This document shows, in pieces, positions 1 through 11,506 of a DNA stretch of 64,000 bases. The position numbers and the translations under genes are program-made. Positions within the stretch are counted from its first letter, which is position 1. Each line of letters opens with the position of its first letter. Source of the DNA: Burkholderiales bacterium (lineage in GTDB: Bacteria > Pseudomonadota > Gammaproteobacteria > Burkholderiales > SG8-41); contig JAIEPF010000016.1 in the NCBI GenBank assembly GCA_019749945.1, positions 93,269 through 157,268 on the forward strand, read 5' to 3'. Below the pieces are notes generated by a model. That model had not been told where the DNA came from. It saw only the letters and a list, made by a program, of their open reading frames with translations, and did not search any database.

Positions 1-1274
1 GGCTTGTACATGTCGACAATGCTGCGCGTGAAGTCCAGCGCATTGGCGCCTTCGTTGACCAGCATCGCGTCGGGGTTGGCCTTGATCACGTCGCGCATCA
101 CGTTCAGCGCGCTGTGGAAATTCATCGGCGAAGGATTCTTGGCCAGGGTTTCGGCCATTTTCGCGATGTTTTTGGTCTTGCGTTCGTCGATGGCGCCCAG
201 CCAGTCGGCGGAGGGCTGCGGCCAGCCGGCGCCCGCGGCGCTGATGCCGCCCAGCATCGCAGACACGCAGGAACCGATGTCACCGACCACCGGCGCGTCG
301 ATACGCACGTTGCTGTCCGCCTCCTGCGGCGAAATGTCGATCTGGATGAATTTCTGGCCGCCCCAGTCCTTGTGCGACTTGCCGCCCCAGGTCTTGCCTT
401 TGCCGTGCGACAGCAGCCAGTTCAGCCGCGCGCCGATCAGCATCACCACATCGGCTTCCGGCAGCACGTAGGAACGCGCGGCGGCCGCCGACTGCTTGTG
501 CGTATCGGGCAGCAGGCCCTTGGCCATCGACATCGGCAGATAGGGGATGCCGGTTTTTTCGACCAGGGCACGGATGTCGGCGTCGGCCTGGGCGTAGGCC
601 GCGCCCTTGCCCAGCACGATCAGCGGACGTTTGGCGGTTTTCAGCAGATCGAGCGCGCGCTGCACCGCGTCCGGTGCCGGGATCTGGCGCGGCGCCGGAT
701 CGACGACCTTGATCAGCGAGGCGCGGCCGGCGGCGGCGTCCATGCTTTGCGCGAACAGTTTGGCCGGCAGGTCGAGGTAGACGCCGCCCGGACGGCCGGA
801 GACGGCGGCGCGGATGGCGCGCGCGACGCCGATGCCGATATCCTCGGCGTTCAATACGCGGAAAGCGGCCTTGCACAGCGGTTTGGCGATGGCGAGCTGG
901 TCCATCTCCTCGTAATCACCCTGCTGCAGATCGACGATCTCGCGCTCACTGGAGCCGCTGATCAGGATCATCGGGAAGCAGTTGGTGGTGGCATTCGACA
1001 GCGCAGTGAGGCCGTTGAGAAAACCGGGGGCCGACACCGTCAGGCAGATGCCGGGTTTTTGCGTGAGGAAGCCGGCGATGGCGGCGGCGTTGCCGGCGTT
1101 CTGCTCGTGGCGGAACGAAATCACGCGGATGCCGGCGGCCTGGGCCTTGCGGGTGAGGTCGGTGATCGGGATGCCGGGCAGGCCGAAAATGGTGTCGATG
1201 CCGTTGAGCTTGAGGGCGTCAATGACCAGGTTGAAGCCGTCGGTCTGTTCTGCTGATTGGGTGTCGTTTGTCAT
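1..1274 (-). CDS. oxc: Oxalyl-CoA decarboxylase (3' part runs off the window)
   Basis: Not in the ORF track; manual minus-strand translation from ATG 1274: [61 protein letters not shown]...[13 protein letters not shown]...[12 protein letters not shown]. This is the ThDP-dependent Oxc signature, and frc is nearby. Confidence 0.95.
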
Positions 1275-1555: not shown

Positions 1556-2164
1556 CTAAATCTTGCCGCGCCGCTTCAGGCGGCTCAGTGTTTCCGGCGA
1601 CAGGTTGAGGTATGAAGCGAGTTCCTTTTTCGGCAGACGTTCGGCGAGTTCGGTGTGTTTGCGCATGAAGCGTTGCACCCGTCCCGGCGCATTGAGCAGA
1701 TGCAGGGTGATGGTGTGCGCCATGACTTCGCTCATCAGCTTCATCACTTCAAGCTCGAACTCGGCCTTGATTTTGGCGTGGCGTTCGAGGAAGGCGGCCC
1801 ACTGCAGCATCGACAGCTTGGCGGCGCGGACACGGGTGACCGCGCGGATCGAATACGGCATGGGGGTCTTCAGCCGCCAGGCGGCGTAGCTGGTGTCGAT
1901 GTCGCTTTCCGCGGCAAAACGCAGGATCATTTCCTTGCCGTGGGCATTGGAGACGGTCCGTTTCAGAATGCCGTCGATGATGAAATACTGCTTCATGGCG
2001 TGCGTACCCTGGAGCTCCAGCGTTTCGCCCTTGGCATAGTCGGTAATTTCCAGCAGGGGCTCGAATTCGTTCCATTGCGCCACGCCCAGGCTTTTCAGGA
2101 CCATGTTTTGCCGCAATTGCAGGCGGATGACTTTGGACTGGGGATGCAGTGCAAGCTGGGTCAT
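1556..2164 (-). CDS. Crp/Fnr-family transcriptional regulator
   Basis: N-terminal cNMP-binding-like beta-roll and C-terminal HTH (KKELASYLNLSPETLSRLK) with the FNR-like ETxSR recognition helix. Lies between oxc and frc. Confidence 0.9.
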   Translation of the reverse strand: MTQLALHPQSKVIRLQLRQNMVLKSLGVAQWNEFEPLLEITDYAKGETLELQGTHAMKQYFIIDGILKRTVSNAHGKEMILRFAAESDIDTSYAAWRLKTPMPYSIRAVTRVRAAKLSMLQWAAFLERHAKIKAEFELEVMKLMSEVMAHTITLHLLNAPGRVQRFMRKHTELAERLPKKELASYLNLSPETLSRLKRRGKI

Positions 2165-2305: not shown

Positions 2306-2380
2306 GGCGCCCTCGCGCTATTACAATCAGAAATGTTGCGGACTGTTTTGCATCCGCCGCAGATTTTTTTGGAGATCAGA

Positions 2381-3649
2381 ATGGAAGCTTTGAAGGGTGT
2401 GCGAATTCTCGACATGACCCATGTCCAGGCCGGGCCGACGTGCTCGCAGCTGCTGGCGTGGATGGGCGCCGACGTGATCAAGTTCGAACCGCCGCAGGGT
2501 GACGCGACGCGCGGCCAGCTGCGCGACGTGCCGAACGCGGACAGCCTTTATTTCACCATGTTGAACTGCAACAAGCGCTCGATCACGGTCAACATGAAAT
2601 CGGCCGAAGGCAAGACGGTATTCATCGATCTGCTCAAGAAGTGCGACATCATCATGGAGAACTTCGGCCCCGGCGTGCTCGACCGTTTCGGTTTCACCTG
2701 GGAAAAAATCCACGGGATCAATCCGAAAATCGTGATGGGCTCGATCAAGGGTTTCGGCTCCAGCGGACCGTACGCCGAGTTCAAGGCTTACGAGAACGTG
2801 GCGCAGGCGATGGGCGGCGCGATGAGCACCACCGGCATGCCGGACAGCCCGCCGTTTGTCACCGGCGCCCAGATCGGCGACTCCGGTACGGGACTGCATC
2901 TGGCGATCGGCCTGCTCGCGGCCCTGCATCAGGCCAACCGCACCGGGCAGGGGCAGTATGTCGAGGTCGCGATGATGGACGGCGTGATGAATCTGTGCCG
3001 CGTCAAATGGCGCGACCACCAGCGGCTGACCCGGCAGTCACTGGCGGAGTATTCGGTGCCGACCTACCAGGGCATGGGCGAGGTGCCGCGCGCCGGCAAT
3101 GATTCCGGCGGCGGCCAGCTCGGCAACGCGATTCACTGCAAGCCGCACGGCGCCAACGACTGGCTGTATATCGTGGTGCAGGAGGCGGTGTGGGATGCGC
3201 TGGCCAAACGCATCGGACCGGATCTCGGCATGCCGGATCTGGCCACGGATCCCAAGTTTGCGACCATCGCAGAGCGCCGCAAGAACCAGCCGCTGATGTG
3301 GACCCTGATCACCAAATTCGCCGAGAAATACACCAAGCGCGAATTCATGGCCATCCTCAATCCGCTGGATGTGCCCTGCGGCCCGATCATGTCGACCGAG
3401 GATCTGGCCAACGACGAACATATCCGCGGCCGCGACATGTATGTCGAACTCGACCACCCCCAGCGCGGCAAGTGGTGGAACGTCGGCATGCCGATCAAGC
3501 TGTCGGCCTCACCCGCGGTGATCAAACGCTCGCCGCTGCTTGGCGAACATACCGATGAAGTGCTGAAGGACGTGCTGGGTTACGGCGACGAGCAGATCGG
3601 CAAGCTGAAGACTGCAGGCGCGTTCAGCGCGCCGCCGAAGAAAAAATAA
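2381..3649 (+). CDS. frc: Formyl-CoA:oxalate CoA-transferase (CoA-transferase family III)
   Basis: MEALKGVRILDMTHVQAGPTCSQLLAWMGADVIK start, IGDSGTG catalytic Asp, RAGNDSGGGQ glycine loop. GGAGA SD before ATG 2381. Confidence 0.93.
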   Translation: MEALKGVRILDMTHVQAGPTCSQLLAWMGADVIKFEPPQGDATRGQLRDVPNADSLYFTMLNCNKRSITVNMKSAEGKTVFIDLLKKCDIIMENFGPGVLDRFGFTWEKIHGINPKIVMGSIKGFGSSGPYAEFKAYENVAQAMGGAMSTTGMPDSPPFVTGAQIGDSGTGLHLAIGLLAALHQANRTGQGQYVEVAMMDGVMNLCRVKWRDHQRLTRQSLAEYSVPTYQGMGEVPRAGNDSGGGQLGNAIHCKPHGANDWLYIVVQEAVWDALAKRIGPDLGMPDLATDPKFATIAERRKNQPLMWTLITKFAEKYTKREFMAILNPLDVPCGPIMSTEDLANDEHIRGRDMYVELDHPQRGKWWNVGMPIKLSASPAVIKRSPLLGEHTDEVLKDVLGYGDEQIGKLKTAGAFSAPPKKK

Positions 3650-3686
3650 CTTTCCGGCAATGGCATGGATTTATAGAGGATTCAGC

Positions 3687-4619
3687 ATGAAAATAGCAAT
3701 CATCGGACAGCAGGATTTTGGCAAGGAAGTGCTGGAAGCCTTTCTTGCGCGCAAGGATGAAGTCGCCGGCGTATTCTGTGCGCCGGAAAAACCGGGCGCC
3801 AAGGCCGATCCGCTGCGCACCGCCGCCGAAGCGCACGGCCTGAAGGTGTTCCAGTTCCCGTCGCTGCGGGTGCCGGAAGCGCATGACGCGCTGAAGTCGC
3901 TGAATACCGACCTCGGCGTGATGGCTTATGTGCTGCAGTTTGCGCCGGATACCTTCGTGCATCTGCCGCGCCTCGGCACGATCCAGTATCACCCCTCGCT
4001 GCTGCCGAAGTACCGCGGACCATCCTCGATCAACTGGCCGATCATCCGCGGCGACAGCAAAACCGGGCTGACCATTTTCCGTCCGAACGAAGGACTCGAC
4101 GAGGGCCCGGTGATCCTGCAGAAAACCTGCGACATCGGCCCCGACGAAACCATCGGCGAGGTGTATTTCAACAAGCTGTTCCCGATGGGCGTCAAGGCCA
4201 TGCTCGAGGCCGCCGACCTGGTGTACGCCGGCAAACACACGGAGACGGTACAGGACGAATCAAAAGCGAGTTACGAAGGCTGGTGTCGCGCCGGGGAAGC
4301 CCAGATCCATTGGGCCCAGCATGTCGATTTTGTCTACAACGTGATCCGCGGCACCAATCCGGCGCCGGGCGCCTGGACCACGCTGAACGGCAAAAAAGTG
4401 CAGATTTTTGATGCGCGCAAACATCTGTTCCGCCGTTTCGCCGATGTCGCCGGCAAAATCGGTGAGGTTTCCGAAGTCAGTGCAGGCAGTTTCAAGGTGA
4501 CGGCGCAGGGCGGTGTGATCGAAGTGCTGCGCGCGCGCGGCGAAGACGGCAAAAAACTGTCGGGCGGCGACTTCGCTCGCGCCCACGGTTTGGCAAAGGG
4601 CGCATTGCTCGGCACCTGA
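3687..4619 (+). CDS. Formyltransferase (Fmt/ALDH1L1 N-terminal-domain-like)
   Basis: YHPSLLPKYRGPSSINW folate-binding motif, GLDEG catalytic Asp, C-terminal IRGTNPAPGAW. AGAGGA SD; directly downstream of frc. Confidence 0.88.
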   Translation: MKIAIIGQQDFGKEVLEAFLARKDEVAGVFCAPEKPGAKADPLRTAAEAHGLKVFQFPSLRVPEAHDALKSLNTDLGVMAYVLQFAPDTFVHLPRLGTIQYHPSLLPKYRGPSSINWPIIRGDSKTGLTIFRPNEGLDEGPVILQKTCDIGPDETIGEVYFNKLFPMGVKAMLEAADLVYAGKHTETVQDESKASYEGWCRAGEAQIHWAQHVDFVYNVIRGTNPAPGAWTTLNGKKVQIFDARKHLFRRFADVAGKIGEVSEVSAGSFKVTAQGGVIEVLRARGEDGKKLSGGDFARAHGLAKGALLGT

Positions 4620-4642: not shown

Positions 4643-4670
4643 AAGGCCACGCTGCGGCGTGGCCTTTTTT
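4643..4670 (+). terminator. Intrinsic terminator after frc-formyltransferase
   Basis: AAGGCCACGC-TGCG-GCGTGGCCTT followed by a T run. Confidence 0.85.
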
Positions 4671-4927
4671 ATTGAAAAACTTAAGTCATTGTTTTTATTG
4701 ATATTTTTATATAACAACGGTCTTAGGGATGAAATCCTGTCCTGCCGTTCTGCGTTTATCGGTGTGCCGTGACCGGCGGTCGGAAGAATGACGATGGCGT
4801 GTGACGTTTGGCACTAAGTCCTTAAAAAAACATAATCCTTAGAGGGGAATATCGTAAAATCTGTGAAACTCCGTCGTTAAGCCATTCAGCGGAAACATAA
4901 AAACAACGCGGAACGGGCGTAAAAGGG

Positions 4928-7495
4928 ATGAAAAAGCTGAGTTTCTGGAAGGCTGACTGGTTTATCGGACTCATTGTCGCCGTGATCATGCTGATCGCTG
5001 CGCGCGGTGACCTGATCCAGAGCCTGGAGCGCAAGGCCTACGACCTTGGTGTCCAGGCCGTCTCCCGCACGCCGTCCGACCGCATTGCCGTGATTGCCAT
5101 CGACGATGCCAGCATCGCCAATATCGGCCGCTGGCCCTGGTCGCGCGACGTCCACGCCCGCATGATTGACCTGCTTGCCGGCGCCAAAGCCAAGGTCATT
5201 GCCAATACCACGTTTTTTTTCGAACCCCAGCGCGATGCGGGGCTGGCGTATGTCGAAAAGCTGCTGAACCTGCACAATGAGCTGACCGCGCAGGGCGCAA
5301 CGGATCCCAAGGCGGCCGCGGTCGCCGACGGTCTGGCGCGGATCGGCGCGGTATTGACCGAAGCGGAGCAGGCGCTCAACACCGATCGCAAACTGGCCAG
5401 CAGCATGAAAACCGCCGGCAATGTGGTGCTGCCGCTGGTGTTCCAGCAGCTGACCGAACCCCAGGGCAATCCGGACAAGCCGCTGCCGGATTACGTGCAG
5501 GCGAGCGGCATGCCCGGCCCGCGCGGCGGGGACGCCTTACCGCCCCCGGGCGTGTTTCCCTTGTACCCGGTCGCCGAGCTGGGACCGGCAATTGCCGGCA
5601 TCGGGCACCTGAACGCCGATATCGACGTCGATGGCGCGGTGCGCGCCGAACCGCTGGTGGTGCGTCATTACGATCGCGTTTTTCCAGCGCTGTCGGTGGT
5701 GGTGGCGGCGCGCAGCCTGAACCTGGGTACGGCCGATATCAAACCGGCCTGGGGCGAGGCGCTGCAGATCGGCAAACTGCGGGTGCGCACGGATGCCGAG
5801 CTGCGCATGCATACCTTTTTTTATGCCGACCGCGACGGCCGCCCGGCATTCCCGGTGGACTCGTTTTTTGACGTGTTGAGCGGCAAGGTGCCGGCGGCCA
5901 AATACCAGGACAAGATCGTGCTGATCGGCGCCACTGCCGCCGGCCTCGGTTCGGCGCAGGTCACGCCGGTGTCACCGGCGACGGCACCGGTGCTGACCCT
6001 GGCGCATACGGTATCGAGCATACTCGGCGAACATTTTTTCGTGACGCCGTCCTGGGGCATCTGGGTGCAGATCGGCGTCTTTTTGCTTGTGGCCTTGTAC
6101 CTGATCCTGGTATTGCCGCGGCTGAAGGCCGGCATTGCGGCGCTGCTCAGCCTGGCGATCGGCGTGGCGCTGCTCGGTGCGCATTTCGGGCTGATGGTGA
6201 CGCAGCTGACCTGGATCCAGCTGATGGCATCGGTGGCCTTGCTGGCCGTGGGTTACGCCGCGCTGACCACCAAACGCTTCCTGGTCACCGAACGCGGCAA
6301 GGAAAAATCCGATGCCGAGTCCGCGGAATCCAACCGCATGCTGGGCATCGCCTACCAGGCCCAGGGCCAGCTTGATCTGGCCTGGGACAAGTTCCGCCAA
6401 TGCCCGCTCGCCGATCCGGTGATGGAAAACCTTTATGCGCTGGCGCTGGATTTCGAGCGCAAGCGGCAGTTCAACAAGGCGGAGTCGGTATTCCAGTACA
6501 TGGCGGAATTCAATCCGAAATTCCGCGATCTGGAGCAGCGGCTGACGCGGGCCAAGGCGCTGTCGGAAACGGTGATCCTCGGCGGCGCGCAAGGACATCC
6601 CGGCGGCACCATGATGCTGGCCGGTGGCGGCATGGAAAAACCGATGCTGGGCCGTTATCAGGTCGAGAAGGAACTCGGCAAGGGTGCGATGGGCGTGGTC
6701 TACCTCGGCAAGGATCCGAAGATCGGCCGCGTGGTGGCGATCAAGACCATGGCCCTGTCGCAGGAGTTCGAAGGCGATGAACTGGTCGAGGTCAAGGAGC
6801 GTTTTTTCCGCGAAGCGGAAACCGCGGGGCGCCTGACGCATCCCTGCATCGTCACCATTTACGATGCCGGCGAAGAACACGATCTGGCGTATATCGCGAT
6901 GGAATTTCTCAAGGGCCGCGATCTGGTGCCCTATACCAAGCCCGATGCGCTGCTGCCGGTGCCGCTGGTGCTGTCGATCATTGCCCGCGTCGCCGAGGCG
7001 CTGGGTTACGCCCACCAGCAGAACGTCGTGCATCGCGACATCAAGCCGGCGAACATCATGTATGAGCCGGAAAGCGATACCGCGAAAGTGACCGACTTCG
7101 GCATTGCCCGGGTCACCGACTCCTCCAAAACCAAGACCGGCATGGTGCTCGGCACGCCGTCCTACATGTCGCCCGAGCAGCTGGCCGGGAAAAAGGTGGA
7201 GGGACGCTCCGACCTGTTTTCGCTGGGTGTCACGCTCTACCAGATGTTGAGCGGCAAGCTGCCCTTCCAGGGCGAGTCCATGGCGCAACTGATGTTCAAG
7301 ATTGCCAACGAAGCACACCCCGACATCCGCACCCTGAAACCGGATCTGCCCGCCTGTGTGGCCGCAGTGACCAACAAGGCACTGGCGAAAGATCCCGACC
7401 AGCGCTACCAGAGCGGTGAACAGATGGCGAAAGCCATCCGGCTGTGCCTGGGCACGCTGGCAGCAAAACCCAAAGCCGACACCGCTGTATCCTGA
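4928..7495 (+). CDS. Membrane CHASE2-domain Hanks-type Ser/Thr protein kinase
   Basis: N-terminal TM, CHASE2 (IDDASIANIGRWPWSR; DVDGAVR; KIVLIGATAAG), 3 TMs, TPR-like segment, then kinase (LGKGAMGVVY, VAIK, HRDIKPAN, DFGIA, GTPSYMSPEQ). Confidence 0.95.
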   Translation: MKKLSFWKADWFIGLIVAVIMLIAARGDLIQSLERKAYDLGVQAVSRTPSDRIAVIAIDDASIANIGRWPWSRDVHARMIDLLAGAKAKVIANTTFFFEPQRDAGLAYVEKLLNLHNELTAQGATDPKAAAVADGLARIGAVLTEAEQALNTDRKLASSMKTAGNVVLPLVFQQLTEPQGNPDKPLPDYVQASGMPGPRGGDALPPPGVFPLYPVAELGPAIAGIGHLNADIDVDGAVRAEPLVVRHYDRVFPALSVVVAARSLNLGTADIKPAWGEALQIGKLRVRTDAELRMHTFFYADRDGRPAFPVDSFFDVLSGKVPAAKYQDKIVLIGATAAGLGSAQVTPVSPATAPVLTLAHTVSSILGEHFFVTPSWGIWVQIGVFLLVALYLILVLPRLKAGIAALLSLAIGVALLGAHFGLMVTQLTWIQLMASVALLAVGYAALTTKRFLVTERGKEKSDAESAESNRMLGIAYQAQGQLDLAWDKFRQCPLADPVMENLYALALDFERKRQFNKAESVFQYMAEFNPKFRDLEQRLTRAKALSETVILGGAQGHPGGTMMLAGGGMEKPMLGRYQVEKELGKGAMGVVYLGKDPKIGRVVAIKTMALSQEFEGDELVEVKERFFREAETAGRLTHPCIVTIYDAGEEHDLAYIAMEFLKGRDLVPYTKPDALLPVPLVLSIIARVAEALGYAHQQNVVHRDIKPANIMYEPESDTAKVTDFGIARVTDSSKTKTGMVLGTPSYMSPEQLAGKKVEGRSDLFSLGVTLYQMLSGKLPFQGESMAQLMFKIANEAHPDIRTLKPDLPACVAAVTNKALAKDPDQRYQSGEQMAKAIRLCLGTLAAKPKADTAVS

Positions 7496-7503
7496 GGCCC
7501 TGA

Positions 7504-8316
7504 ATGAACGATTTGTCCAACGCCATAGAAATCACGACCGCCACCCACCCGGGCATGGTGCGGTCGCATAACGAGGACAGCCTTTCTGCGGATGCTGCGG
7601 CCGGGCTTGCCGTGCTGGCCGACGGCATGGGCGGCTACAATGCCGGCGAGGTGGCCAGCGGCATAGCGGTGGCGATGATCAGCGCCGAACTGAAAAAGGC
7701 GCTGGCCGCAATCAACGGCGAACTCGATACGGCGACCGCGGAACGCCTGGTTGGCGAACATGCGGTGCGCGCCAACAATGCGATTTTCCAGGCCGCGCAG
7801 AACCAGTCGCAGTACGCCGGCATGGGCACCACGCTGGTCGTCGCGCTGTGGCACGACAACTCGCTGGTGGTCGGACATATCGGCGACTCGCGGCTCTACC
7901 GGTTCCGTAACAACAAACTTGAGCAGGTCACGCGCGACCATTCGCTGTTGCAGGAACAGATCGACAGCGGCCTGATCACCAAGGCGCAGGCCCGCCATTC
8001 GCAGAACAAGAATCTGGTGACGCGGGCGGTGGGCATCGACCCGGAAGTCGAGGCCGAAGTCCACAGCTACCCGGTGCAGGCCGGCGATATCTACCTGCTG
8101 TGTTCGGACGGCCTCAACGACATGGTGACGGATGAGGACATGGAGTTGACGCTGGCGTCGCTGCAGGCCAATCTGCCCCTGGCCGCCGCGCAACTGGTGC
8201 AGCAGGCGAACGACAATGGCGGGCGTGACAATGTTTCGGTTATTCTGGTGCGCGTGCTGAAGAGTTTCCCGGCCCGCGCTGGTTTGGTTGACCGGTTGAA
8301 GTCCTGGTTCAGATAA
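7504..8316 (+). CDS. PP2C-family Ser/Thr phosphatase (Stp1/PppA-like)
   Basis: RSHNED, ADGMGG, GMGTT, HIGDSR, TRDHS, LLCSDGL and GGRDN motifs. Confidence 0.95.
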   Translation: MNDLSNAIEITTATHPGMVRSHNEDSLSADAAAGLAVLADGMGGYNAGEVASGIAVAMISAELKKALAAINGELDTATAERLVGEHAVRANNAIFQAAQNQSQYAGMGTTLVVALWHDNSLVVGHIGDSRLYRFRNNKLEQVTRDHSLLQEQIDSGLITKAQARHSQNKNLVTRAVGIDPEVEAEVHSYPVQAGDIYLLCSDGLNDMVTDEDMELTLASLQANLPLAAAQLVQQANDNGGRDNVSVILVRVLKSFPARAGLVDRLKSWFR

Positions 8317-8333
8317 GCAACGGGGATACTACT

Positions 8334-9143
8334 ATGGCGAAGTTGATACTTTCTCTTGAAGGCTCGATGATCCGCGAGGTCCCGCTCGACAAGGAGCGGA
8401 TCATGATCGGGCGCAAGCCTTCCAACGAGATCCAGATCGAGAACCTGGCGGTCAGCGGAGAACACGCATGCATCGTGACCATCCTCAATGATTCGTTTCT
8501 CGAGGACCTGGGCTCGACCAACGGTACCCTGGTCAACGGCAATCCGATCAAAAAACACATCCTGCAGAACAACGATGTGATCGAGATCGGCAAATACAAG
8601 CTGAAATATGTCGCCGAAGCACCGGCGGCGGGCCACGCCGGCGAGGATTTCGAGAAAACCATGATCCTGCGTGCCCCGCCCAAAGCGGCTGCGGCGCCCA
8701 AACCCGCCAATGAGCCCGCGCCGGCGCCGAAGCCCTCGACCCCGCCGCCCACGCCGCGGCCGGTGCCGCCTGCGGCCAAGCCGGCGGCCCCCGCTGCGTC
8801 TCCCGCGGCCGCTGCACCGTCTCCGGCCGCTGTCGCCGCAGCGCCTGCCGTTGCGCCGGCCAAACCCGCCGAAACACAGCCCCTGGCGGCGGTGCAGATC
8901 CTGACCGGGCCCAGCGCGGGCAAGGAGCTCGACCTCGTCAAAAACCTGACGACGCTGGGCAAGCCGGGACTCCAGGTCGCGGTGATCACGCGCCGTCCGC
9001 AGGGTTATTTCATCACCCACGTCGAAGGCGCCAAGTTTCCAGTGATCAACGGCAAGATGATCGACGCCCAGGCGCAGCCCCTGCAGGATCACGACGTGAT
9101 CGAGCTGGCGGGCGTGAAAATGGAATTTTTCATCAAGAAATAA
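8334..9143 (+). CDS. FHA-domain protein (canonical FHA, Pro/Ala linker, second FHA-like domain)
   Basis: IGRKPSN...VSGEHA...DLGSTNGT FHA motif; long PA-rich linker; C-terminal LTTLGK...INGK...LQDHDVIELAG. Confidence 0.93.
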   Translation: MAKLILSLEGSMIREVPLDKERIMIGRKPSNEIQIENLAVSGEHACIVTILNDSFLEDLGSTNGTLVNGNPIKKHILQNNDVIEIGKYKLKYVAEAPAAGHAGEDFEKTMILRAPPKAAAAPKPANEPAPAPKPSTPPPTPRPVPPAAKPAAPAASPAAAAPSPAAVAAAPAVAPAKPAETQPLAAVQILTGPSAGKELDLVKNLTTLGKPGLQVAVITRRPQGYFITHVEGAKFPVINGKMIDAQAQPLQDHDVIELAGVKMEFFIKK

Positions 9144-9268
9144 AAAGAGAACACGCGGTGCATTTTGCAGGATGCCCGCGCTGTGATGGCCGACAGGGGT
9201 CGAGCGGATTGAAGAAACACGCGGAAGACGTGATGACCCTGTTACAGCAGAGACTTTAGGACGACAGG

Positions 9269-11506
9269 GTGAAAAAACATCTGGCCCGCATAGCGATAGG
9301 CATGGCGATTGTCGCCCTGTTTCTCGCGCATGCAGTTCATGTCCTGCGCGTTCCGCTGCTCGACAATCTTGAGGCCATCGTTTACGACACGCGGCTGCGT
9401 TTGACGATGCCGCGCACCGTCGATCCGCGCGTGGTGATTCTCGACATCGACGAAAAAAGCCTGCAGGAAAAGGAAAAGGGCGGCGAAGGCCGCTGGCCGT
9501 GGCCGCGCGACCGGCTGGCGCTGCTGCTGGACAAGCTGTTCGACAAATACGGCATTGCCGTCGTCGGCTTCGACGTGGTGTTTGCCGAACGCGACGAATC
9601 CTCGGGCATCCGCGTGCTGGAGCGGCTGGGCCAGCGGGAGCTGAAGGCCGTGCCGCAATTCCAGTCCGTGCTCGACCAGGTGCGGCCGCAGCTCGAATAC
9701 GATGACATTTTCGCCCGCAAGATGAAGGGCCGTGCGGTGGTGCTGGGCCATGTGTTCCTCAGTGACGATCCGGCCAACGCCACCAAAAAGGGCATGCTGC
9801 CGCCGCCGGTGCTGCCGGCCGGCGCTTTCGGCGAACGCCGCGTCGGCGTCACCTCGTGGGCCGGTTACACCGCCAACCTGGAGCGGTTGCAGCGCGCCGC
9901 CGCCAGTGCCGGGCATATCAATCCGCTGCCGGATCAGGACGGCATCACCCGGCGTGTACCGATACTGGTGGAACACGCCGGCGCCTATTACGAGCCCTTG
10001 TCGCTGGCGATGGTGCGGGCGGTGCATGACCGGCCTCCCGTGGTGCCGGTGGTGAGCCAGGACGGCATTACTGCCAATTACAGCGGCCTCGAGTGGATCA
10101 AGACCGGGCCTTTCGAAATCCCGGTTGATTTTCAGGCGGCGGCACTGGTGCCGTACCGCGGCAGCAAGGGCAGCTACCGGTATTTCTCGCTGGTGGATGT
10201 GCTGAATGAACGTGTTCCGGTCGAAGAACTGCGCGGCAAGATCGCGCTGATCGGCACCACGGCGCCGGGCCTGCTCGATCTGCGGGCGACGCCGGTGGAC
10301 CCGGTGTATCCCGGGGTGGAGATTCACGCCAACCTGATCAGCGGCATCCTCGACGGCAACATCAAGCAGCGTCCGCCGTATGTGGTCGGCGCCGAATTTG
10401 TGCTGCTGCTGCTGTCCGGCGTGGCGCTGGCGCTGCTGCTGCCGCTGCTGACGCCGTTCAAATCCATGCTGGTGACGGCGCTGGTGCTGGTGACGGTGGT
10501 CGGCGCCAACCTGGTGGTGTTTCATACCGGGCATCTGGTGCTGCCGCTGGCCTCCGGCGTGCTGCTGGTCCTGATCCTGTTCACCTTCAACATGGCGTAC
10601 GGCTTCCTGGTCGAGGCGCGCGGCACGCGGCTGATCACCGGACTGTTCGGCCAGTACGTGCCGCCGGAACTGGTCGAGCAGATGGCGCTGAATCCGGAGC
10701 AGTTCAACATGGCGCCGCGCGCCGAGGAACTCACGGTGCTGTTTTCCGATGTGCGGGGATTTACCACCATCTCGGAAAGCCTGAGCCCGGACGACCTGTC
10801 GGTCTACATCAACGATTACCTGACCACGATGAGTCTGGTGATCCGTGAGGGCCATCGCGGTACGCTGGACAAGTACATCGGCGACGCGGTGATGGCGTTC
10901 TGGGGCGCGCCGATGGCCGACCCCAACCACGCGCAGAACGCCGTGCTGGCCGCGCTCGACATGATGAAGCAGTCGGCGGTGCTCAACAAAAAATTCAGCG
11001 ACAAGGGCTGGCCGCCGTTTGCGATCGGCATCGGCGTCAACTCCGGGGTGATGCGCGTCGGCGACATGGGTTCGCAGATCCGCAAGGCCTATACCGTGAT
11101 GGGCGACGCGGTGAACCTGGGTTCACGCCTGGAGGGCATCACCAAGCAGTACGGCGCCGATATCATCATCGGCGAGGCGACCAAAAAGCGCATCACCGGC
11201 ATCGTGCTGCGCGAAATCGACCTGGTGCAGGTCAAGGGCAAGGACGAGCCGGTGGCGATCTTCGAGCCGCTCGGACTGGAAGGCGAGGTTGAACAAAGCA
11301 AGCTCGACGAGATCAAACTCTGGAACCAGGCGCTGCGGTTCTATCGCGCCCAGGACTGGGACAAGGCGGAATTGCAGTTGATGAATCTCAAGAAGATTTC
11401 AGCAAAACCCTATCTCTACGACGTGTTCCTGGAGCGTATTGCCGGGTACCGCGCCAACCCGCCGGATTCCGCATGGAACGGCGTTCACAAGTTTGATACC
11501 AAGTAA
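9269..11506 (+). CDS. Membrane CHASE2-domain class III adenylate cyclase
   Basis: CHASE2 (DIDEKSL...GRWPWPR), 3 TMs, cyclase motifs LFSDVRGFT, DKYIGDAVM and YTVMGDAVNLGSRLE (Lys/Thr adenine specifiers); C-terminal TPR-like tail. Confidence 0.93.
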   Translation: MKKHLARIAIGMAIVALFLAHAVHVLRVPLLDNLEAIVYDTRLRLTMPRTVDPRVVILDIDEKSLQEKEKGGEGRWPWPRDRLALLLDKLFDKYGIAVVGFDVVFAERDESSGIRVLERLGQRELKAVPQFQSVLDQVRPQLEYDDIFARKMKGRAVVLGHVFLSDDPANATKKGMLPPPVLPAGAFGERRVGVTSWAGYTANLERLQRAAASAGHINPLPDQDGITRRVPILVEHAGAYYEPLSLAMVRAVHDRPPVVPVVSQDGITANYSGLEWIKTGPFEIPVDFQAAALVPYRGSKGSYRYFSLVDVLNERVPVEELRGKIALIGTTAPGLLDLRATPVDPVYPGVEIHANLISGILDGNIKQRPPYVVGAEFVLLLLSGVALALLLPLLTPFKSMLVTALVLVTVVGANLVVFHTGHLVLPLASGVLLVLILFTFNMAYGFLVEARGTRLITGLFGQYVPPELVEQMALNPEQFNMAPRAEELTVLFSDVRGFTTISESLSPDDLSVYINDYLTTMSLVIREGHRGTLDKYIGDAVMAFWGAPMADPNHAQNAVLAALDMMKQSAVLNKKFSDKGWPPFAIGIGVNSGVMRVGDMGSQIRKAYTVMGDAVNLGSRLEGITKQYGADIIIGEATKKRITGIVLREIDLVQVKGKDEPVAIFEPLGLEGEVEQSKLDEIKLWNQALRFYRAQDWDKAELQLMNLKKISAKPYLYDVFLERIAGYRANPPDSAWNGVHKFDTK

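What the first reader, a model, noticed from the sequence alone, without database searches (positions are those of the whole stretch)
3687..4619. Stand-alone ALDH1L1-like formyltransferase in the frc operon: candidate formyl-CoA:tetrahydrofolate formyltransferase
Seen: the gene lies 37 bp after frc and shares its terminator. It reads MKIAIIGQ..FG.EV, KADPL, YHPSLLP..RG.S.INW, GLD.G, LFP.G.K.M and A.YEG. Established (my recall of the family): these segments resemble the N-terminal domain of 10-formyl-THF dehydrogenase ALDH1L1 better than Met-tRNA Fmt, whose NxH Asn is replaced here by QYH. In ALDH1L1 that domain moves formyl between folate and a phosphopantetheine thiol. Inference: with no carrier domain attached, the free pantetheine thiol of CoA could be the partner. 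Formyl-CoA made by Oxc could then load THF directly, bypassing ATP-dependent formate-THF ligase. I know of no description of this C1-entry reaction. A 10-formyl-THF hydrolase is the alternative.
Basis: partly seen in the sequence, partly recalled or inferred. Interest (0 to 1): 0.85.

Follow-up and report, generated by a model that had tools for sequence, protein, structure and literature searches.

The report
Formyltransferase partner of formyl-CoA transferase
A gene annotated as a second Met-tRNA formyltransferase is instead a stand-alone relative of the folate domain of ALDH1L1 that sits beside formyl-CoA transferase and often formate-THF ligase, so it probably moves formyl groups between CoA and folate.

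Summary
Window 3687-4619 (+) encodes a 310-aa two-domain formyltransferase. It starts 37 bp after frc and ends at one shared terminator. It matches the ALDH1L1 N-domain (203 bits) far better than Fmt (127 bits). It has QYH in place of NxH and lacks the Fmt loop insertion. The genome has a normal Fmt elsewhere.

Context is the main evidence.
- frc lies directly upstream in 77 of 80 Burkholderiales loci, and in distant relatives down to 40% identity.
- In a 401-genome sample of another class, 28 of 32 carriers have frc, against 4 carriers among 363 genomes without frc.
- fhs (formate-THF ligase) is adjacent in 14 of 30 loci there.
- Natural fusions of this protein to Fhs exist.

Best reading (0.6): reversible formyl transfer between formyl-CoA and 10-formyl-THF.

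This chemistry is not new. LctF (2025) was shown to formylate CoA from 10-formyl-THF, and the same step is proposed for HypX. What appears undescribed is its use in the oxalate/formyl-CoA operon.

The direction of the reaction remains open, and no biochemistry was done.

The parts
3687..4619 (+). fmtL: stand-alone ALDH1L1-N-like formyltransferase, 310 aa (P0001). Catalytic-type residues are H102, S104 and D138. It has QYH instead of NxH.
3675..3680 (+). Shine-Dalgarno-like AGAGGA, 6 nt before the ATG
   Evidence: Read from the sequence. Not tested.
4643..4676 (+). Intrinsic-terminator-like hairpin plus T-run that closes the frc-fmtL unit
   Evidence: The scan found no such site between frc and fmtL.
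2378..3649 (+). frc, formyl-CoA:oxalate CoA-transferase
   Evidence: TIGR03253 scores 557 bits against a cut-off of 504. Pfam CoA_transf_3.
1556..2164 (-). Crp/Fnr-type regulator, conserved beside oxc/frc in related loci
   Evidence: Pfam cNMP_binding, and HTH_Crp_2 below its cut-off. Found in most of the 80 loci.
3..1274 (-). oxc, oxalyl-CoA decarboxylase. This is the N-terminal 424 aa; the gene runs on past the window start.
   Evidence: NF006721 scores 719.9 bits. The whole gene is at G000:C34:92827-94515 with 983 bits.

Best explanation
The gene encodes a stand-alone formyltransferase, here called FmtL. It belongs to the ALDH1L1-N-like branch of the Fmt superfamily.

Proposed reaction: FmtL uses the conserved His/Ser/Asp site to move a formyl group between N10 of tetrahydrofolate and the pantetheine thiol of free CoA (formyl-CoA + THF <-> 10-formyl-THF + CoA). 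This would connect the formyl-CoA pool of the Frc/Oxc oxalate cycle with the folate C1 pool served by Fhs.

What is shown: family placement, conserved catalytic-type residues, co-transcription-like anatomy with frc, and wide conservation of the frc-fmtL(-fhs) arrangement including FmtL::Fhs fusions.

What is inferred: CoA as the thiol partner, and the direction.

My preferred direction, at about 55:45, is 10-formyl-THF -> formyl-CoA. In that case Fhs plus FmtL act as a THF-mediated, ADP-forming formate activation. This would start or refill the Frc/Oxc cycle whenever formyl-CoA is lost by hydrolysis or oxalyl-CoA is drained (for example by reduction to glyoxylate). The opposite direction, formyl-CoA -> 10-formyl-THF for C1 supply, is thermodynamically easier by my recalled estimates. 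It may dominate in carriers that lack fhs.
For: Family placement:
- The best PDB sequence matches are ALDH1L1/FDH N-domains (203 bits, against 127 for Fmt).
- The protein scores below the cut-offs of the fmt, ArnA, PurN and PurU models.
- In trees it falls in a clade with 100% SH-aLRT support that excludes NxH Fmts and includes long ALDH1L1-like proteins.
- H102 and S104 are invariant and D138 nearly invariant across 38 clade members.
- The 5-residue loop insertion seen in the 2 true Fmts aligned is absent.
- A canonical Fmt is encoded elsewhere in the genome.

Linkage to formyl-CoA enzymes:
- frc is directly upstream on the same strand in 77 of 80 related loci; 1 locus is cut and 2 lack it.
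- frc is adjacent in 5 of 7 distant genomes (40-62% identity) and is 8 kb away in a sixth.
- In 10 of 10 metagenome loci with enough upstream DNA, frc is upstream.
- In the class sample, 17 of 30 loci have frc upstream.
- At genome level, 28 of 32 carriers have frc over the cut-off, 28 of 38 frc genomes carry FmtL, and 4 of 363 genomes without frc carry it.

Linkage to 10-formyl-THF:
- fhs is adjacent in 14 of 30 class loci and in 14 metagenome loci.
- One genome has an fhs-fmtL operon away from frc.
- A named plasmid carries oxc-frc-fmt_2-fhs_2.
- About 40 protein clusters of 878-898 aa fuse FmtL to Fhs through a Pro/Ala/Lys-rich linker. They nest inside the frc-linked clade.

Chemical precedent:
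- LctF formylates CoA from 10-formyl-THF in vitro.
- The HypX N-domain is proposed to do the same.
- The ALDH1L1 N-domain passes formyl to a 4'-phosphopantetheine thiol.
- The concept of a separate enzyme that primes the Frc/Oxc cycle exists already (YfdE), and that paper's supplementary legend gives formyl-CoA a spontaneous-hydrolysis half-life of 1.9 h in quenched reaction mixtures.
Against: - There is no enzymology for any member of this clade.
- HypX is only a distant relative (E 3.5e-7; 19% identity and TMq 0.67).
- The fold does not separate FDH-N, Fmt and ArnA-N; all give TM 0.83-0.93.
- About a third of class-sample loci (11 of 30) have neither frc nor fhs within 1.5 kb.
- 2 of 80 Burkholderiales loci lack frc nearby.
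- 10 of 38 frc genomes manage without FmtL.
- Three carriers lack fhs, so an Fhs partnership is not universal.
- A PanE-like reductase subfamily, taken as a possible oxalyl-CoA reductase, is no commoner with FmtL (21 of 27) than without it (7 of 10). This gives no support for the priming direction.
- The counts come from related genomes and are not independent.
Confidence: 0.6

Rival explanations
1. It is a hydrolase. Either it is a PurU-like 10-formyl-THF deformylase, or it hydrolyses formyl-CoA to release formate and free the cofactor.
For: The ALDH1L1 N-domain is called a 'hydrolase domain' in its PDB entries and papers. The window's genome shows only three PF00551 genes and no PurU-type match. 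Formyl-CoA is labile.
Against: The PurU models score 23 bits against cut-offs of 223-286. A deformylase adjacent or fused to Fhs would form an ATP-wasting loop. A PurU substitute would not be expected to track frc (28 of 32 against 4 of 363).
Confidence: 0.12
2. It formylates some other acceptor from 10-formyl-THF, such as an amine metabolite, a sugar nucleotide or a carrier-protein thiol. Under this reading it is linked to frc only because both handle C1 units.
For: The superfamily has many acceptors, including ArnA and the sugar N-formyltransferases. The acceptor site was not analysed. A third of the loci are orphans.
Against: No carrier protein, sugar-nucleotide gene or amine-pathway gene recurs beside it. 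The recurring neighbours are exactly the enzymes that make or use formyl-CoA and 10-formyl-THF.
Confidence: 0.18
3. It is a second Met-tRNA formyltransferase, as public records annotate it.
For: The sources name it so. The fold and domain pair are those of Fmt.
Against: It scores below the fmt cut-off. It has QYH instead of NxH and lacks the Fmt loop insertion. It forms a separate clade. A canonical Fmt is present. In the phylum sample the score gap coincides with the motif: the top 8 hits are Q/CxH and 21 of the next 22 are NxH.
Confidence: 0.03

Closest known systems
N-terminal (hydrolase/formyltransferase) domain of 10-formyl-THF dehydrogenase, ALDH1L1/FDH
   Same: It is the best sequence match (36-37% identity, 203 bits). 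It has the same two sub-domains, His/Ser/Asp in register, no Asn before the His, and the short loop. It falls in the same superclade.
   Different: There is no carrier domain and no aldehyde dehydrogenase domain; the gene ends at 310 aa with a stop and a terminator. It belongs to a different subclade. It is bacterial and operonic with frc.
LctF of Streptomyces lactacystinicus (10-formyl-THF:CoA formyltransferase)
   Same: LctF is a stand-alone Fmt-like protein with free CoA as formyl acceptor, shown in vitro. This is the same reaction proposed here.
   Different: LctF feeds a PKS/NRPS loading step in secondary metabolism. The context here is the oxalate/formyl-CoA operon.
HypX/HoxX N-terminal domain
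   Same: It is a formyltransferase fold with His/Asp. Formyl transfer from 10-formyl-THF to bound CoA has been proposed for it.
   Different: It is only distantly related (E 3.5e-7; 19% identity) and is fused to a crotonase-like decarbonylase. It serves hydrogenase maturation.
Met-tRNA formyltransferase (Fmt)
   Same: The Pfam domain pair and the fold are the same.
   Different: See the membership test: it is below the cut-off, has no Asn, lacks the loop insertion, forms a separate clade, and a true Fmt is also present.
YfdE / acetyl-CoA:oxalate CoA-transferase (functional analogue only)
   Same: It is a separate enzyme proposed to prime the Frc/Oxc cycle with a CoA thioester.
   Different: It belongs to an unrelated family (class III CoA-transferase) and uses acetyl-CoA, not folate.

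Membership tests
Met-tRNA formyltransferase (TIGR00460) | Score at or above the curated cut-off | tested here: not met
   156.2 bits against 201.5
Met-tRNA formyltransferase (TIGR00460) | N-x-H catalytic motif | tested here: not met
   The protein has IQYH. True Fmts in the same searches have NxH.
Met-tRNA formyltransferase (TIGR00460) | Loop insertion after PDRPxG. Its role in tRNA recognition is recalled, not tested. | tested here: not met
   A 5-residue gap relative to the two Fmts in the alignment
Met-tRNA formyltransferase (TIGR00460) | Groups with Fmt in a tree | tested here: not met
   Separated by a branch with 100% SH-aLRT support (quick method)
ALDH1L1/FDH | N-domain with His106/Ser108/Asp142 equivalents | tested here: met
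   H102, S104 and D138 aligned. Residue roles are as stated in PMC6802093.
ALDH1L1/FDH | Fused carrier (4'-PP) and aldehyde dehydrogenase domains | tested here: not met
   The 310-aa ORF has a stop and a terminator. Among the longer relatives found, only one carried an Aldedh domain (P0327, 38% identity).
10-formyl-THF:CoA formyltransferase (LctF, HypX-N) | Formyl transfer to or from CoA | not testable with these tools
   Needs an enzyme assay
10-formyl-THF:CoA formyltransferase (LctF, HypX-N) | Sequence kinship to LctF | not tested
10-formyl-THF:CoA formyltransferase (LctF, HypX-N) | Genomic coupling to an enzyme that uses formyl-CoA | tested here: met
   frc adjacency and co-occurrence
PurU (formyl-THF deformylase) | Score at the cut-off; ACT domain | tested here: not met
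   23 bits against 223-286, and no ACT domain
ArnA / sugar N-formyltransferases | Score at the cut-off | tested here: not met
   118.8 against 777, and 31 against 238

The most novel reading that the evidence does not exclude
FmtL and Fhs together form a natural, THF-mediated, ADP-forming formyl-CoA synthetase (formate + ATP + CoA -> formyl-CoA + ADP + Pi). In some bacteria the two are fused into one polypeptide. With Frc this gives net ATP-driven activation of oxalate to oxalyl-CoA and keeps the Frc/Oxc cycle primed. This would be a missing third component of bacterial oxalate metabolism and a ready-made formate-to-formyl-CoA module.
Probability: 0.33. Interest if true: 0.85.

Novelty: new variant of a known kind. 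Interest (0 to 1): 0.72.

Why it matters
The Frc/Oxc pathway is usually described as a closed two-enzyme cycle. In the alphaproteobacterial-type sample, 28 of 38 frc genomes carry this third gene, which is everywhere annotated as Met-tRNA formyltransferase.

If it links formyl-CoA with 10-formyl-THF, it would explain two things. One is how the cycle is started or refilled. The other is how oxalate-derived C1 units reach folate.

Formyl-CoA is also the entry metabolite of current synthetic C1-elongation designs (recalled). A natural route from formate to formyl-CoA through Fhs and FmtL that forms ADP would cost one phosphoanhydride bond. The acetyl-CoA-synthetase route costs two.

The finding would also correct a widespread mis-annotation.

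Tried and rejected
- Fold comparison cannot separate FDH-N, Fmt and ArnA-N, so it adds only that the model (pLDDT 94.1) has the expected fold.
- fhs presence does not separate oxc genomes with FmtL (5 of 8) from those without (5 of 12).
- A PanE-like reductase subfamily (NF005089) is about as frequent with FmtL (21 of 27) as without (7 of 10) among frc genomes. My test of the priming direction therefore failed to discriminate. No PanE-like gene lies in the window or in the other loci.
- The metagenome scan with the fused protein P0276 returned no fused gene. In all 13 loci checked, fmtL ends in a stop before fhs. The genomic context of the true fusions is therefore unknown, and some long calls (P0273, P0287, P0319-P0321) look like read-through artefacts. 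The three Frc+FmtL calls (P0301, P0302, P0326) are singletons and were not trusted.
- The class search with the fused N-domain found no fused gene either.
- RNA evidence is weak. Only short contigs, mostly under 90% alike, from one soil metatranscriptome touch frc and fmtL. None bridges the two genes. This gives no conclusion on expression.
- The rest of the window (ilvB, ilvC, leuA, lptFG, proS) is housekeeping.
- Neighbours of orphan copies show no common theme.
- Literature: no paper was found that links frc/oxc with such a formyltransferase. Subscription journals are not covered and supplements were closed.
- Not done: complex prediction, since I make no binding claim.

Full report
**The gene.** Window 3687-4619 (+) is an intact 310-codon ORF. 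It starts 37 bp after the TAA of frc and is preceded by AGAGGA. It is followed by the only strong terminator-like hairpin of the region, at 4643-4666 with a T-run; none lies between frc and the gene. frc (2378-3649) passes the curated formyl-CoA transferase cut-off. A Crp/Fnr-type regulator (1556-2164, -) and oxc (3-1274, -, cut by the window edge) lie upstream.

**Family.** Pfam finds Formyl_trans_N plus Formyl_trans_C. The NCBIfam fmt model scores 156 bits, below its cut-off of 201.5, and the ArnA, PurN and PurU models are far below theirs. Against PDB sequences, the ALDH1L1/FDH N-domains score 203 bits (E 4.5e-59), E. coli Fmt 127 bits, ArnA about 100 bits and HypX 33 bits. The genome holds three PF00551 genes: a short one I take to be PurN (open frame 220 aa; not checked further), a canonical Fmt with GCLNIHASLLPRWRG, and this one.

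An alignment shows QYH in place of NxH. His, Ser and Asp are kept (H102, S104, D138). A 5-residue gap sits where the two true Fmts carry a loop insertion.

In a tree of 55 rows (53 of 150 representatives kept, plus the window protein and the genome's own Fmt) the protein falls in a clade with 100% SH-aLRT support. That clade consists mostly of non-Asn proteins, includes the long ALDH1L1-like sequences, and excludes the NxH Fmts. In a second tree of 79 hand-picked rows, all context-linked genes form one clade (96% support), distinct from the subclade that holds ALDH1L1. Both trees used the quick method.

The AlphaFold model is confident (pLDDT 94.1). The fold matches FDH-N, Fmt and ArnA-N about equally, so it does not discriminate between them.

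**Linkage to frc/oxc.**
- Among the 80 closest loci from species genomes (71-96% identity, uncultured Burkholderiales), frc lies directly upstream on the same strand in 77. One locus is cut and two lack it (neighbours of the two exceptions). oxc is in the same locus in 55, in two arrangements.
- In an even sample of 401 genomes of the phylum, 8 carry the gene. There is a clear score gap (269 bits down to 194) that coincides with the motif: the top 8 hits are Q/CxH and 21 of the next 22 are NxH. Seven of these 8 are among the 18 genomes with oxc over the cut-off.
- In the seven carriers other than the window's genome (40-62% identity), frc and oxc are directly adjacent in five and 8 kb away in one. 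The seventh has an fhs-fmtL operon. That genome carries frc on another contig, next to a non-Oxc ThDP enzyme and a PanE-like reductase.
- In a second sample of 401 genomes, from the class of one distant carrier, 32 carry the gene. frc is directly upstream in 17 of 30 loci.
- At genome level in that sample, 28 of 32 carriers have frc over the cut-off, 28 of 38 frc genomes carry the gene, and 4 of 363 genomes without frc carry it. The odds ratio is about 250. Kin are not independent, so the p-value overstates the case. One unpublished genome, G621, is included; without it the counts are 27 of 31 and 27 of 37.

**Linkage to folate.**
- fhs (formate-THF ligase) is adjacent in 14 of the 30 class-sample loci, usually as frc-fmtL-fhs.
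- fhs is also adjacent in 14 metagenome loci. These are separate genes: a stop was seen in all 13 loci checked.
- It is adjacent in locus L058 (fdh-fhs-frc-fmtL) and in G072 (oxc-frc-fmtL-fhs).
- A named record shows the same order. Paracoccaceae bacterium La 6 plasmid pLA6_002 (CP031587.1) is annotated oxc, frc_5, fmt_2 'Methionyl-tRNA formyltransferase', fhs_2. Ketopantoate reductase, glyA2, ppc and a sucCD pair lie nearby.
- In the window's own genome, fhs lies about 10 kb upstream of the gene. The order is sucCD, NAD-type formate dehydrogenase, fhs, transporters (including TctC and TctA), then oxc.
- A search for longer relatives found 56 proteins. About 40 of them, at 878-898 aa, join this domain (50-53% identical to the window protein) to a complete Fhs through a Pro/Ala/Lys-rich linker. 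Their N-domains nest within the frc-fmtL-fhs group.

**Interpretation.** The two recurrent partners make or use formyl-CoA (Frc, Oxc) and 10-formyl-THF (Fhs). The closest characterised relative passes formyl from 10-formyl-THF to a pantetheine thiol. The simplest reaction consistent with all of this is formyl-CoA + THF <-> 10-formyl-THF + CoA.

That chemistry is documented. LctF was shown by LC-MS to make formyl-CoA from 10-formyl-THF and CoA (PMC11730586, passages read). The HypX N-domain is proposed to do the same (PMC6802093, passages read). The reaction itself is therefore not new. Its place in the oxalate/formyl-CoA operon appears to be new: six literature searches found no such link, within the limits of the library.

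**Direction.** A hydrolase fused to Fhs would waste ATP, and a 'bypass of Fhs' does not fit the frequent adjacency and fusion.

In a closed Frc/Oxc cycle, every formyl-CoA drained to folate must be replaced by another thioester. The drain therefore saves no ATP overall; this is my reasoning, not a result.

The reverse direction would give net, ATP-driven formyl-CoA, and through Frc, oxalyl-CoA. That would be useful to start the cycle, to replace hydrolysed formyl-CoA, or to support oxalyl-CoA reduction. On hydrolysis, the YfdE paper's legend reports a half-life of 1.9 h in quenched mixtures, and the same paper introduces the priming concept.

By my recalled estimates of group-transfer energies, formyl-CoA -> 10-formyl-THF is the downhill direction. 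Three carriers also lack fhs. In addition, neither fhs presence nor PanE-like reductase presence separates frc genomes with and without the gene. I therefore leave the direction open at about 55:45 in favour of formyl-CoA synthesis.

**Verdict.** This is a large, conserved and mis-annotated orthologous group that most likely links CoA-bound and folate-bound formyl groups. It needs an enzyme assay.

Supplementary files of the cited papers were not seen.

Noticed in passing
Proteins P0274-P0315: These are natural fusions of the FmtL domain to a complete formate-THF ligase, 878-898 aa, joined by a Pro/Ala/Lys-rich linker. Their genomic context was not found.
   Followed up: partly
L126:4417-6231, L178:3286-4677, L123:6203-7927 (G395:C47): This is a variant operon in which frc(-fmtL-fhs) follows a ThDP enzyme that is not Oxc. 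The enzyme is 25-27% identical to Oxc. Its best models are PRK05858 and 2-hydroxyacyl-CoA lyase, both below their cut-offs. It may be another source of formyl-CoA.
   Followed up: partly
L122:13471-16724 (G000:C34, just upstream of the window) and 53 loci: TctC/TctA tripartite tricarboxylate transporter genes are conserved next to oxc in 53 fetched loci. They are a candidate oxalate uptake system.
   Followed up: no
L232 (CP031587.1 65036-83950): This named plasmid island is annotated with ppc, a sucCD pair, oxc, frc, fmt_2, fhs_2, TctB/TctA, ketopantoate reductase and glyA2. It looks like an oxalate assimilation/serine-cycle module.
   Followed up: no
L145:7729-10695: Here frc lies directly upstream of fhs with no FmtL between them. 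It is the 1 such case among 66 plain-fhs metagenome loci.
   Followed up: no
window 4928-11506: Downstream of the terminator lie large ORFs that by eye carry a Ser/Thr-kinase motif (HRDIKPAN) and, further on, a cyclase-like C-terminus. No tool was run on them.
   Followed up: no
G000 whole genome: Only three PF00551 genes were found and no PurU-type match, in a genome that is 95.8% complete.
   Followed up: no
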